Shown here piece after piece: positions 48,675 through 51,600 of a stretch of DNA of 64,000 nucleotides. The position numbers were made by a program. The first letter of the stretch is position 1; each line of letters begins with the position of its first letter. Location of the stretch: assembly GCF_002854065.1 (NCBI RefSeq), contig NZ_CP024150.1. The stretch is one strand, 5' to 3'. Source of the stretch: Escherichia coli. Its GTDB lineage: Bacteria > Pseudomonadota > Gammaproteobacteria > Enterobacterales > Enterobacteriaceae.

Positions 48675-51600
48675 CAACGGATAATCAGCTCCGTTTATCT
48701 CACCCTCTTTCATCTTTTCGTAAGATTGTATTTGGGTAAGTCCCTTAAAGAAGAACTCCTGCGGGGTCATATTCGGGCGGGCATCTGTTCCCTCCTCGGC
48801 TACCGCCAGCAAGAAATCACTCTGTACTGGCCGCACGATAGCGCGAATGAGATCTGGTAGCGCCTTAACGGGTAGTTTCTCTGCCACAGAAAGCAGGTGA
48901 TTAAAGCGTTTTTTTTCATTGGCTATAGTTGCTTTCTCTTTCTTGTTTCGGTTCCAGAACATCACTGTCCGTAGCACTCCTTATCGTGATCAAGATGATG
49001 GTTTTTAATTCTAATGCTGCGGTAGTTTCACGTCACGCACACATGCATATTCTTCAAAAGCTTCGGCGTCAGCCGGTCAACCAGTTCCGCCTAGTACCAC
49101 AGGATAAACAGGCTCCCCACTAAAATTACTTCTTGATTAGTACCACGTACTAAAATGTTTGATTTTAGTACGTGGTACTAGTATGATTATCAGCATGAAG
49201 CTAAAGGAGCCAGTGGGATGAACTATCTGGAGTTTGTTGAAACCAGCGCTTTCAGTGGTCTGCGTAAAGAGCTCATGGATGATGATGAATTTCGGGAACT
49301 GCAGACCTATTTACTGGAAGCTCATGATCGGGGTGACACTATCAGTCACACAGGTGGATGCAAAAAGATTCGGTGGAGCCGCCCAGGGATGGGGAAGCGA
49401 GGTGGCGTCAGAGTGATTTACTACGTTCGCCTTGCCAGCGGCAGATTATACCTGCTTCTGATATACCCTAAGAATGCTAAAGATGATCTTAGCGAGAAAG
49501 AAAAAGCCGTTATGAAGGTATTAGCACAGCAGCTGAAATAATGGTACCACTCAAATGGTGGCAGGCCTCTCCATAACGAGGAAAAATTTATGGAAAAGAA
49601 ACTTTTTGATGCACTTATTAACAGCATGGAGGAAATGGTTGCCATTGAGAATGGCCAAATCCAGCCAGCTGAAGAAAATATTCACCGCCATACACTGCCG
49701 GATGTGAAGGCTATTCGTAAACATGCCGGAATGAAACAGGCTGAATTTGCAGAAGTGGTGGGAGCCAGCGTTGACCTTATCCGCAGCTGGGAACAGAAAC
49801 GGCGTATCCCGTCGGGTATTGCGTTGAAAATGCTCTGTCTCATCGAACGTGAGCCAGCACTGATTAATACCTTGCGCAGCATTTAATCCTGAATTTCTAA
49901 AGCCCAGTTAGATGGGCTTTAATATTTGTGATTCTGTTAACTTCGATCTGACTGCATCGTCACGTAGGCGCATAATGACACCCGGTAGCCGATACTGTTC
50001 TCAGGGACGGGTTTCTGAACTAACCTAAAATCCAGTCGTAATGATCCTCGTGAGTTACAGGGCTGTCTGATGACATAATACAGACATTCCCATAACCACC
50101 ATCATGCGAAGCTGCATATTTAGACACGGCGATTGCATCATTTTTATTTTTTAATACCGCAATGATTTTTCCACTGTTATGCAATGTACTTACGCAGTAG
50201 ATCCCTTAGTGCAAAATCTGATTTTCTTTTAATTGACTAGCCATGCCGATTACCCTTCTCCGTACAGAATGATTAATTGTGCAAAGGTAGCTGATCAGTT
50301 CGTCAACCCGCCGTGAATACGTATCTTCAATCTGTATTCTGTTTCTGTGTACCGTTACAGACCCTGATTACTGTCATCTTTGATACGCCAGCCAGACGGG
50401 CAGTTTCTCGCAGCGATTTTCCGTTGACCATGCGCAGAGTACGTATCAGTTCATGTTTCTGCGCATCGGCCACCCTGCCCCGGTATTTTCCTTCAGCTTT
50501 CGCTTTACAGATTCCCTCTGCCTGCCGACGTCTACGGTCTTCGTAGTCTTTTCTGGCAATGGCGGCAAGCATATCCAGCATCATGCTATTTACGGCCTTT
50601 AACATGCTTCTGGTGAAGTCATCGCGGACTGCGTTGGTCAGGGCCATATGGCTGGTTGGGAGATCAAGACTGACAACAGATAACCGTTTATCTGTTATCT
50701 CTTTTCTAAGAATCACCCAGCCAGCATCATTCAGACGGGATAGCCGGTCCACCTGTTCAATCAAAATAACGTCCCCAGGCTCCATATCTGCAAGCATCCG
50801 AGTTAATTCCGGACGGTTCAGGGATGCACCTGATGCATTTTCAACATACCAGCCAGCAATTCGATGACCATGAAGCGCTGCAAATTCTTTGAGCCTGTTT
50901 TTTGAACGAAGCGCGTCTTGTTCCATTGTTGAAGCTCGAAGATATGCGTAAATGTACATTTTTTGCACGCCTGGTCTAGTATGAGTGGTCTATTATATAG
51001 TGGTAACTTTTAACTGGTACCATATCCAGGAATTCAAATCAATACTTGTGGTCATTTTTGGGGATACCCGAATGTGACTGACTGACTCGCCCGGGCGGGC
51101 TTGTCCAACCCCTCCCCCGTTCAGAAACAAGTTCTGAACAGACTCACGGTTTCGGAAACAGGTCAACAATATTAAATACGATCACATGAAATATTTCTTG
51201 GACACTTTTTCCGATAGTGCCGAAACGTCCACGATGGATCGTATTTTTTGTATATCCCAGGTTCAGGATTGACGGTGATGGAGCGAAGCACTGATTGAAC
51301 TGGACTGAAAATGCTGTATGTCCAGTCAGCCGGAGAATTATACTAGCGACCATGAGCATCACAGGAAGAACGCGTAACAGATGGCAACTGAGTGGGTAGA
51401 TGTGGCTGATAATGCCGTTAAAATTGGGCTTGGCTCTGCGCTGACAATATTGGGCGGTTATCTAACGCTCAAATTATCTCAGCGGCACGAGTTAAGGAAA
51501 GAAGCATTAATTCGACGACGTAAAGATTTTGAGGTGAAAACTGAGCGTTACGTGAATTTTTTATCCAGTTCAAGAAAGATGTTGCAGAAATATACTATCA

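What the first reader, a model, noticed from the sequence alone, without database searches (positions are those of the whole stretch)
49138..49930. RelE-superfamily/HTH toxin-antitoxin pair with a perfect 19-bp palindromic operator
The toxin precedes the HTH antitoxin (HigBA-like order), with a terminator downstream. A perfect 19-bp inverted repeat with a 5-bp spacer sits 38 bp upstream, an unusually clean autoregulation site.
Basis: partly seen in the sequence, partly recalled or inferred. Interest (0 to 1): 0.4.

Follow-up and report, generated by a model that had tools for sequence, protein, structure and literature searches.

The report
HigBA2-type plasmid toxin-antitoxin with paired operator
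This is an ordinary, already annotated plasmid toxin-antitoxin pair of the HigB2/HigA2 type, and its striking perfect palindrome is two copies of a repressor-binding box shared by the whole family, placed on either side of the promoter's -35 element.

Summary
A perfect 19-nt inverted repeat (49138-49156 / 49162-49180, 5-nt spacer) lies 37 nt upstream of a toxin-first gene pair, and a terminator-like hairpin follows the pair.

The window is an E. coli plasmid. Identical copies are annotated in RefSeq as a RelE/ParE-family toxin plus a NadS-family protein. The toxin (107 aa) is a homolog of Vibrio cholerae HigB2 and keeps all five of its active-site residues. The antitoxin (98 aa) aligns with HigA2 over nearly its full length.

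The palindrome is not a single site. It is two 17-bp boxes (TTAGTAC-N3-GTACTAA) whose centres are 28 bp apart. The predicted -35 lies between them and the -10 abuts the second box.

In 64 related loci from other genera, the core GTAC-N3-GTAC occurs upstream of the toxin in 52, and twice in 25. All 77 exact matches in 233 kb of the fetched loci are accounted for by these upstream copies. The bases flanking GTAC co-vary with recognition-helix residues of the antitoxin.

The most likely function is autorepression by the antitoxin, possibly with the toxin as corepressor, serving plasmid addiction.

One feature is mildly new: in several lineages the two boxes are exact mirror copies, including their non-contacted centres.

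Verdict: new member of a known kind, low interest.

The parts
49138..49180 (.). Perfect inverted repeat (19-nt arms, 5-nt spacer), a composite of the two operator boxes and their inner flanks
   Evidence: Chance expectation is 4.8e-6. As single-stranded DNA it forms a hairpin of -18.8 kcal/mol, z = -9.9.
49137..49153 (.). Operator box O1: TTAGTAC-CAC-GTACTAA (7-N3-7), just upstream of the -35
   Evidence: Read directly from the sequence. The GTAC-N3-GTAC core is centred at -73 from the start codon, and relatives have a box at about -74.
49165..49181 (.). Operator box O2: TTAGTAC-GTG-GTACTAG, filling the spacer between -35 and -10
   Evidence: Its core is centred at -45, and relatives have a box at -45/-44. 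The mapped V. cholerae HigA2 operator occupies the same position relative to its promoter (PMC11006873).
49159..49164 (+). Predicted -35 hexamer TTGATT
   Evidence: Relatives have a TTGACA-like hexamer at the same place between their boxes.
49182..49187 (+). Predicted -10 hexamer TATGAT, 17-nt spacing from the -35, abutting O2
   Evidence: Relatives have TATAAT-like hexamers directly after box 2.
49204..49209 (+). Shine-Dalgarno-like AAGGAG, 8 nt before the toxin ATG
   Evidence: Read from the sequence.
49218..49541 (+). Toxin gene, HigB2-type RelE-superfamily mRNA interferase (107 aa)
   Evidence: Pfam PF06296, 36 bits against a cut-off of 27. PDB 5ja8 HigB-2, E = 2.8e-18, ungapped over residues 6-97. 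K50, R52, R65, Y83 and K85 correspond to the VcHigB2 active site. R, R, Y and K are conserved in 56-57 of 57 family members.
49578..49582 (+). Shine-Dalgarno-like GAGGA, 7 nt before the antitoxin ATG
   Evidence: Read from the sequence.
49590..49886 (+). Antitoxin/repressor gene, HigA2-type (NadS family), 98 aa: N-terminal toxin-binding segment and C-terminal HTH-XRE domain
   Evidence: NCBIfam NF041265 NadS, 85.3 bits against a cut-off of 60. Pfam HTH_3 over residues 39-82. A family profile matches VcHigA2 5j9i at E = 7.6e-10 over residues 3-95.
49898..49931 (+). Intrinsic-terminator-like stem-loop (9 pairs, 6-nt loop) followed by a T-rich tail
49092..49126 (.). Possible relic of a third arm: exact TAGTACCAC (49092-49100) and ACTAAAAT (49119-49126), 18 nt apart. 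Whether it belongs to the system is uncertain.
   Evidence: All 3 exact TAGTACCAC and 3 of the 4 exact ACTAAAAT in the window lie in 49092-49180. The segment 49085-49136 matched neither of the two modules that flank it in a search of other plasmids.

Best explanation
This is a plasmid-borne type II toxin-antitoxin operon of the HigB2/HigA2 (PF06296 / NadS) kind.

Transcription is predicted to start from a sigma-70 promoter (-35 at 49159-49164, -10 at 49182-49187). It would run through the toxin and antitoxin genes to the terminator at about 49898-49931.

The toxin is expected to be a ribosome-dependent mRNA endonuclease like V. cholerae HigB2. The antitoxin is expected to neutralise it through its N-terminal segment, and to bind DNA as a dimer through its C-terminal HTH domain.

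The perfect palindrome is two 17-bp dimer sites. O1 (49137-49153) lies just upstream of the -35. O2 (49165-49181) lies between the -35 and the -10. When both are occupied, RNA polymerase is excluded and the operon represses itself. By analogy with relatives, the toxin probably strengthens repression.

On a plasmid the net effect is addiction, that is, killing or growth arrest of cells that lose the plasmid.

Shown here: the anatomy, the homology, the conserved catalytic residues, the family-wide box motif, its fixed position in the promoter, and the co-variation between protein and DNA. Inferred: binding, stoichiometry, toxicity and the addiction phenotype.
For: Homology:
- Searches place both proteins with HigB2/HigA2.
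- The five VcHigB2 active-site residues (K49, R51, R64, Y82, K84 in the papers' numbering; PMC5416850, PMC10098735) align with K50, R52, R65, Y83 and K85 here.
- R, R, Y and K are conserved in 56-57 of 57 family toxins.

Gene linkage:
- A toxin homolog sits directly upstream of the antitoxin in about 62 of 74 loci fetched from other species.

Operator:
- Exact GTAC-N3-GTAC occurs within 200 nt upstream of the toxin in 52 of 64 loci, and twice in 25, typically at -74 and -45.
- The window has its boxes at -73 and -45.
- The 77 exact matches in 232,894 nt of the fetched loci equal the number counted in the upstream regions (25 x 2 + 27).
- With one mismatch allowed, the background is 0.02 hits per 120 nt, whereas 54 of 64 upstream regions have at least one hit.

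Promoter:
- The predicted -35 and -10 coincide with TTGACA-like and TATAAT-like hexamers at the same positions relative to the boxes in relatives.

Co-variation between protein and DNA:
- Antitoxin residue 65 aligns with VcHigA2 Glu71, a base-contacting residue.
- With Gln65, the base next to GTAC is C in 78 of 88 half-sites.
- With Lys65, it is T or G in 34 of 34.
- With Arg65, as in the window, it is A in 17 of 30; 17 of the 18 A's in the whole set occur with Arg65.
- Residue 69 Gln goes with T at the next base out in 93 of 98.

Module boundary:
- Klebsiella plasmid copies at 91% identity begin their homology exactly at 49137, the outer edge of O1.

Experimental precedent in relatives:
- VcHigA2 binds an inverted repeat lying between the -35 and across the -10 (PMC11006873).
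- A. baumannii HigA2 represses its promoter, and HigB2 acts as corepressor (PMC5906591).
- C. burnetii AntitoxP, alone or with ToxP, shifts its own promoter in EMSA (PMC10098735).
Against: - Nothing here has been tested experimentally for this pair.
- The promoter is a 9-of-12 consensus match, and such matches are no more frequent in this region than in shuffles. Its support comes only from positional conservation in relatives.
- The V. cholerae operator has different spacing (7-N5-7) and is a single site.
- Three of the four base-contacting residues of VcHigA2 differ here (Asp62, Arg65, Ser66 in place of Arg68, Glu71, Asn72). The binding geometry is therefore extrapolated.
- The co-variation follows clades, so the number of independent events is small, and Arg65 is also found with C or G.
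- The 28-bp centre-to-centre spacing puts the two boxes on different faces of the helix, so cooperative binding cannot be assumed.
Confidence: 0.85

Rival explanations
1. The palindrome works as a structure (a cruciform, or a hairpin in single-stranded DNA or RNA) rather than as a protein-binding operator. Examples would be a terminator or insulator, a recombination or replication signal, or a hotspot of plasmid rearrangement.
For: As single-stranded DNA it forms a 19-bp hairpin of -18.8 kcal/mol, z = -9.9. The arms match even at positions a symmetric dimer should not read, namely the N3 centres and the AAAAT/ATTTT inner flanks. Homology to Klebsiella copies breaks exactly at its edge. A degenerate extra copy of the arm ends lies in the junction upstream. 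A serine recombinase gene lies about 450 bp downstream.
Against: No T-run follows the repeat, and it lies upstream of the predicted transcription start. Across the family it is the GTAC-N3-GTAC box that is conserved, not the long palindrome. About two thirds of two-box loci have unrelated N3 centres, and 18 loci have only one box. The flanking bases co-vary with the antitoxin's recognition helix. The repeat travels with the toxin-antitoxin genes into unrelated contexts.
Confidence: 0.05
2. The pair is no longer a working toxin-antitoxin system. It could be a decayed toxin with an orphan regulator, or NadS could mainly regulate other genes.
For: Related E. coli plasmids carry nadS with the 5' part of the toxin replaced, or next to an IS3 (hits H10-H12). 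Truncated antitoxin-only loci exist. NadS has no characterised function that I could find in the literature. The pair is rare in E. coli, in 12 of 5,426 complete genomes.
Against: Both ORFs are intact and full length. All five catalytic residues are kept. The promoter, both boxes, both Shine-Dalgarno sequences and the terminator are intact. Six plasmids carry the locus at 99.9-100% identity.
Confidence: 0.08
3. One repressor dimer binds the centre of the big palindrome (CTAAAAT-N5-ATTTTAG, the same 7-N5-7 geometry as the V. cholerae operator). On this view the GTAC boxes are secondary.
For: The central 19 bp (49150-49168) has exactly the 7-N5-7 layout of the mapped VcHigA2 operator and covers the -35.
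Against: The central segment is not conserved in relatives. There it holds only the -35 hexamer and variable flanks, and in the Klebsiella copy the centre has two substitutions while the boxes are unchanged. The conserved and co-varying element is GTAC-N3-GTAC.
Confidence: 0.04

Closest known systems
Vibrio cholerae HigB2/HigA2 (VcHigBA2; PDB 5ja8, 5jaa, 5j9i, 8a0w/8a0x)
   Same: The toxin gene comes first. The toxin aligns without gaps at E = 2.8e-18, with all five active-site residues kept. The antitoxin has an N-terminal neutralising segment and a C-terminal HTH-XRE domain (profile match E = 7.6e-10 over residues 3-95). The operator is an inverted repeat containing GTAC, placed between the -35 and the -10.
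   Different: VcHigA2 has one operator, TGTACGC-N5-GCGTACA. This locus has two boxes of 7-N3-7 with centres 28 bp apart. Three of the four base-contacting residues differ. The V. cholerae system is in the chromosomal superintegron; this one is on a plasmid.
Acinetobacter baumannii pAB120 HigB2/HigA2
   Same: It is plasmid-borne and toxin-first. The antitoxin represses its own promoter, the toxin acts as corepressor, and the module stabilises plasmids (PMC5906591).
   Different: I did not quantify sequence identity to that pair. The operator sequence is not defined in that paper.
Coxiella burnetii QpH1 ToxP/AntitoxP
   Same: It is a plasmid-borne HigBA2 homolog. The toxin inhibits translation, and the antitoxin, alone or in complex, binds the promoter (PMC10098735).
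   Different: It is a distant relative (26-30% identity to the V. cholerae proteins, according to the paper). No operator motif is reported.
Proteus vulgaris Rts1 HigB/HigA
   Same: It has the same toxin-first order and an HTH antitoxin that autoregulates through two operator sites overlapping the promoter (established knowledge; PMC12266136 listed).
   Different: The toxin and antitoxin belong to different families. Neither was returned by the PDB searches, and the antitoxin there lacks a disordered neutralising arm (PMC5416850).
YefM-YoeB paired palindromes
   Same: Autorepression works through two adjacent palindromic sites in the promoter (a reference cited in PMC5906591; my own knowledge).
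   Different: The proteins and DNA-binding fold are unrelated. The resemblance is in architecture only.

Membership tests
HigB2-type toxins (Pfam PF06296 'RelE', RelE/ParE superfamily) | Sequence match above the curated threshold | tested here: met
   PF06296 scores 36 bits against a cut-off of 27, E = 9.5e-9. VcHigB-2 matches at E = 2.8e-18.
HigB2-type toxins (Pfam PF06296 'RelE', RelE/ParE superfamily) | RelE-like active-site residues (VcHigB2 K49, R51, R64, Y82, K84) | tested here: met
   They align with K50, R52, R65, Y83 and K85 in an ungapped alignment (residues). R, R, Y and K are conserved in 56-57 of 57 relatives.
HigB2-type toxins (Pfam PF06296 'RelE', RelE/ParE superfamily) | Ribosome-dependent mRNA cleavage and growth inhibition | not testable with these tools
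   This needs expression and in vitro translation assays.
HigA2 / NadS-family antitoxins | Sequence match above the curated threshold | tested here: met
   NF041265 NadS (equivalog) scores 85.3 bits against a cut-off of 60. Pfam HTH_3 scores 33.2 against 23.
HigA2 / NadS-family antitoxins | Modular build: N-terminal toxin-binding segment plus C-terminal HTH dimerisation and DNA-binding domain | tested here: met
   The family profile aligns with VcHigA2 over residues 3-95. The N-terminal residues L5, F6, L9, M16, I19 and E20 are invariant in the family. Disorder and folding on binding were not tested.
HigBA-type type II toxin-antitoxin operon | Toxin gene directly upstream of the antitoxin gene in one operon | tested here: met
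   A 48-nt gap separates the genes, both are on the same strand, and one promoter-like site and one terminator-like site flank the pair. The arrangement is kept in about 62 of 74 related loci.
HigBA-type type II toxin-antitoxin operon | Autoregulation by antitoxin binding to an operator that overlaps the promoter | tested here: inconclusive
   Comparative evidence is strong: the box motif is conserved, has a fixed position, and co-varies with the recognition helix. Binding itself was not tested.
HigBA-type type II toxin-antitoxin operon | Neutralisation of the toxin by direct binding of the antitoxin | not testable with these tools
   This needs co-expression rescue or pull-down experiments.
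MqsA-type antitoxins | N-terminal zinc-binding CxxC...CxxC domain and a match above threshold | tested here: not met
   PF15731 scores 25.4 against a cut-off of 30, and TIGR03830 scores 41 against 61.8. Only the C-terminal HTH aligns. The N-terminal segment contains no cysteine.

The most novel reading that the evidence does not exclude
In this subfamily the two operator boxes are kept as exact mirror copies, including the three central bases and the inner flanks that a symmetric dimer should not read.

In 7 of 22 non-redundant two-box loci, the N3 of box 1 is the reverse complement of the N3 of box 2. Close relatives with identical recognition helices differ in N3 but change both boxes together (TCA/TGA, TGA/TCA, CGA/TCG).

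This would mean one of two things. Either a two-fold-symmetric higher-order repressor complex reads both boxes at once, or the boxes undergo concerted evolution by hairpin template-switching that repairs quasi-palindromes.

Together with the simple link between residue 65 and the base next to GTAC, the family could supply a set of orthogonal repressor-operator pairs.
Probability: 0.3. Interest if true: 0.4.

Novelty: new member of a known kind. Interest (0 to 1): 0.22.

Why it matters
In itself it matters little. It is one more plasmid addiction module, already named by automatic annotation on identical E. coli plasmids and on related Klebsiella IncF plasmids.

The useful by-product is a family-wide operator definition: wTCGTAC-N3-GTACGAw, in one or two copies at fixed promoter positions. 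I did not find this stated in the papers I read. It differs in spacing and copy number from the only mapped operator of the family, that of V. cholerae. It makes the autoregulation of NadS/HigA2-type modules directly testable, and it suggests which residue sets operator specificity.

Tried and rejected
1. A fourth site between the two genes (TGGTACCAC at 49542-49550). It is not conserved in the 91%-identical Klebsiella copy, which has TGGCGCCAC. No full box occurs between the genes in any locus. I rejected it as chance. This agrees with the V. cholerae result that the region between the genes is not bound specifically.

2. A hairpin sequestering the antitoxin start codon (CCATAA...TTATGG around 49571-49592). 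The start codon has a pairing probability of 0.71 against a shuffle mean of 0.59 in the window. There is no family-wide enrichment (54 loci, Wilcoxon p = 0.30). It is strong only in the Xenorhabdus, Photorhabdus and Yersinia clades. It is not supported for this locus.

3. The palindrome as a terminator. It has no T-run and lies upstream of the predicted transcription start.

4. Literature on 'NadS'. I found no functional description, only a note that an E. coli K-12 nadS gene is expressed.

5. PADLOC defence models. There was no hit for the toxin and only weak generic HTH hits for the antitoxin.

6. The upstream extra copies at 49092-49126. They are statistically non-random but lie in a 52-bp junction that matched neither flanking module in other plasmids. 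They remain unexplained.

I did not run structure prediction, because the sequence-level matches to solved structures were sufficient.

Full report
**Where the window comes from**

The segment 49000-49950 is 99.9-100% identical to six complete E. coli plasmids, for example NZ_AP027831.1 p2017.17.03CC_2. It matches no E. coli chromosome and occurs in only 12 of 5,426 complete genomes. Most of the window is colinear with that plasmid, apart from some insertions and deletions.

PGAP annotates the two genes there as 'type II toxin-antitoxin system RelE/ParE family toxin' and 'nadS: NadS family protein', with the same coordinates as the ORFs I found. Copies at about 91% identity are on 41 plasmids, mostly conjugative Klebsiella IncF plasmids. 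One submitter named the pair HigB-2/HigA-2.

**The observation**

The inverted repeat is exactly as described. Its arms are 49138-49156 and 49162-49180, 19 nt each, fully complementary, with the spacer GTTTG. It is the second-longest perfect inverted repeat in the window. About 5e-6 such repeats would be expected by chance.

The right arm ends 37 nt before the toxin ATG at 49218. The toxin ORF is 49218-49541 and the HTH ORF is 49590-49886. A 9-pair stem-loop with a T-rich tail follows at 49898-49931.

**The proteins**

The 107-aa protein passes Pfam PF06296. It aligns without gaps with V. cholerae HigB-2 at E = 2.8e-18.

The residues shown by mutagenesis, or listed, as the VcHigB2 active site are K49, R51, R64, Y82 and K84 (PMC5416850; PMC10098735). 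They correspond to K50, R52, R65, Y83 and K85 here. R, R, Y and K are conserved in 56-57 of 57 family toxins.

The 98-aa protein passes NCBIfam NadS (85 bits, cut-off 60) and Pfam HTH_3. A profile of 18 family members aligns with VcHigA2 over residues 3-95 at E = 7.6e-10. The build is therefore the same: an N-terminal toxin-binding segment and a C-terminal HTH domain. Only its HTH resembles MqsA, and the MqsA models are below threshold.

**What the palindrome is made of**

Each arm contains its own palindrome. O1 is TTAGTAC-CAC-GTACTAA (49137-49153) and O2 is TTAGTAC-GTG-GTACTAG (49165-49181), with centres 28 bp apart. This is why the repeat finder also reports the two arms as a 75% direct repeat.

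The promoter scan places a -35 (TTGATT, 49159-49164) between the boxes and a -10 (TATGAT, 49182-49187) directly after O2. The scan is weak evidence on its own, because the region has no more such matches than shuffles do.

**Comparative test**

I fetched 74 loci encoding relatives of the antitoxin from one genome per species. They came from Enterobacterales, Pasteurellaceae, Oceanospirillales and a few other groups. A toxin homolog lies directly upstream in about 62 of them.

- Exact GTAC-N3-GTAC occurs within 200 nt upstream of the toxin start in 52 of 64 loci, and twice in 25, typically at -74 and -45.
- The 77 exact matches in 232,894 nt of the fetched loci equal the number counted in the upstream regions (25 x 2 + 27).
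- With one mismatch allowed, 54 of 64 upstream regions have a hit, against a background of 0.02 per 120 nt. Single-box architecture (about -44 only) and two-box architecture are both common.
- In Enterobacterales the layout is constant: box 1, a TTGACA-like hexamer, box 2, then a TATAAT-like hexamer. This supports the promoter assignment in the window.
- The Klebsiella copies begin their homology at 49137, the outer edge of O1. Their boxes are unchanged, while the centre of the palindrome has two substitutions.

**Co-variation between protein and DNA**

The base next to GTAC follows antitoxin residue 65:

- With Gln65 it is C in 78 of 88 half-sites.
- With Lys65 it is T or G in 34 of 34.
- With Arg65, as in the window, it is A in 17 of 30. 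These account for 17 of the 18 A's in the whole set.

Residue 69 Gln goes with T at the next base out in 93 of 98.

Residue 65 aligns with VcHigA2 Glu71, one of the four residues that contact bases in the crystal structure.

The classes follow clades, so independent events are few, but the pattern is what an operator-repressor pair predicts.

The mapped V. cholerae operator (TGTACGC-N5-GCGTACA, from after the -35 across the -10) sits where O2 sits here. It has different spacing and is single.

**Mechanism**

The best-supported reading is a self-repressed HigBA2-type operon. Antitoxin dimers on O1 and O2 would exclude RNA polymerase. The toxin would be a ribosome-dependent mRNase, neutralised by the antitoxin's N-terminal segment. 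On a plasmid the module would act as an addiction system.

Precedents in relatives are repression with the toxin as corepressor in A. baumannii and promoter binding in C. burnetii. For this pair, binding, stoichiometry, toxicity and plasmid stabilisation are all inferred.

**Why the palindrome is perfect**

A symmetric dimer does not distinguish CAC from GTG at the box centre, so the perfection of the long palindrome is not required by the box model.

- Among 22 non-redundant two-box loci, the N3 of box 1 is the exact reverse complement of the N3 of box 2 in 7. Permutation gives a mean of 0.78, and no permutation in 100,000 reached 7.
- The two N3 are identical in direct orientation in 3 loci (p = 0.014).
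- Three close relatives with identical recognition helices have TCA/TGA, TGA/TCA and CGA/TCG.

The two boxes of a locus are therefore repeatedly homogenised. Two candidate causes are selection for a symmetric higher-order complex and neutral quasi-palindrome correction by template switching, a process known in E. coli (my own knowledge). I cannot separate the two. This is the only mildly novel aspect.

**Rivals**

- A purely structural role (cruciform, terminator or recombination site) is unlikely. The family conserves the box, not the long repeat, and no T-run follows it.
- A decayed or orphan system is unlikely here, because every part is intact. Decayed copies do exist on other plasmids.
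- A single central 7-N5-7 site is unlikely, because the centre is not conserved.

**Dead ends**

- The GTAC-containing sequence just after the toxin stop is not conserved.
- A hairpin sequestering the antitoxin start codon is not enriched family-wide.
- 'NadS' has no functional literature that I could find.

**Verdict**

The locus is a new, uncharacterised member of a known kind, and it is already annotated by homology. Interest is low.

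Noticed in passing
window 49085-49136: The 52-bp junction between two separately conserved modules holds an exact TAGTACCAC (49092-49100) and an exact ACTAAAAT (49119-49126). 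These are the two ends of an operator arm, 18 nt apart. The flanking modules are 48978-49084, shared at about 91% with many plasmids, and 49137 onwards, the toxin-antitoxin module. The pair of motifs could be a relic of a third box or a scar of the recombination that placed the module here.
   Followed up: partly
window 46688-48977 (- strand): Divergent from the toxin-antitoxin pair lie two genes. One encodes a 596-aa NERD + UvrD-like helicase that matches the PADLOC candidate defence model C3a187 'NERD+UvrD' at E = 6e-141; RefSeq calls it a 3'-5' exonuclease. It is preceded by a 132-aa DUF6710 gene. Together they are a possible two-gene defence candidate next to the addiction module.
   Followed up: partly
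window 29355-29405: The longest perfect inverted repeat in the window has 25-nt arms and a 1-nt spacer (TTCCCCTCACCCTACCCCTCTCCCA G TGGGAGAGGGGTAGGGTGAGGGGAA). It lies between iolD and iolG of a plasmid-borne myo-inositol catabolism cluster.
   Followed up: partly
window 58376-58419: A perfect 16-nt inverted repeat with a 12-nt spacer (TAATTGAATGCGAAGT ... ACTTCGCATTCAATTA). I did not examine its context.
   Followed up: no
window 49545-49563; L025 about 1276-1291; L030 and other Xenorhabdus/Photorhabdus loci: A short stem-loop right after the toxin stop codon recurs in enterobacterial relatives with different sequences, for example GCCCCCGCACTGCGGGGC and GCCGCGTAGATACGCGGC. In the Xenorhabdus, Photorhabdus and Yersinia clades a second hairpin pairs the antitoxin start codon with probability 0.95-1.0. 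There is no family-wide enrichment (p = 0.30), and it is weak in the window.
   Followed up: yes
E. coli plasmids NZ_CP062879.1, NZ_CP104790.1, NZ_JBLWLY010000002.1 (H10-H12): These relatives keep nadS, but their homology starts only inside the toxin gene (window 49377 or 49312 onwards), or an IS3 lies next to the pair. They are decayed or recombined copies that leave an orphan antitoxin.
   Followed up: no
window 50327-50968 (- strand): A 213-aa serine recombinase/resolvase gene with a C-terminal HTH lies about 450 bp downstream of the toxin-antitoxin terminator, on the opposite strand. I did not look for a res site.
   Followed up: no
L077 (NZ_AP027831.1 34400-83362, the near-identical plasmid): The backbone carries two umuDC-type loci (one of them decayed), a group II intron, two DinQ-like type I toxin genes (dqlB), ardA, parAB-like genes and several IS elements. 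Relative to it, window segments 2687-3454 and 14094-17673 did not align.
   Followed up: no
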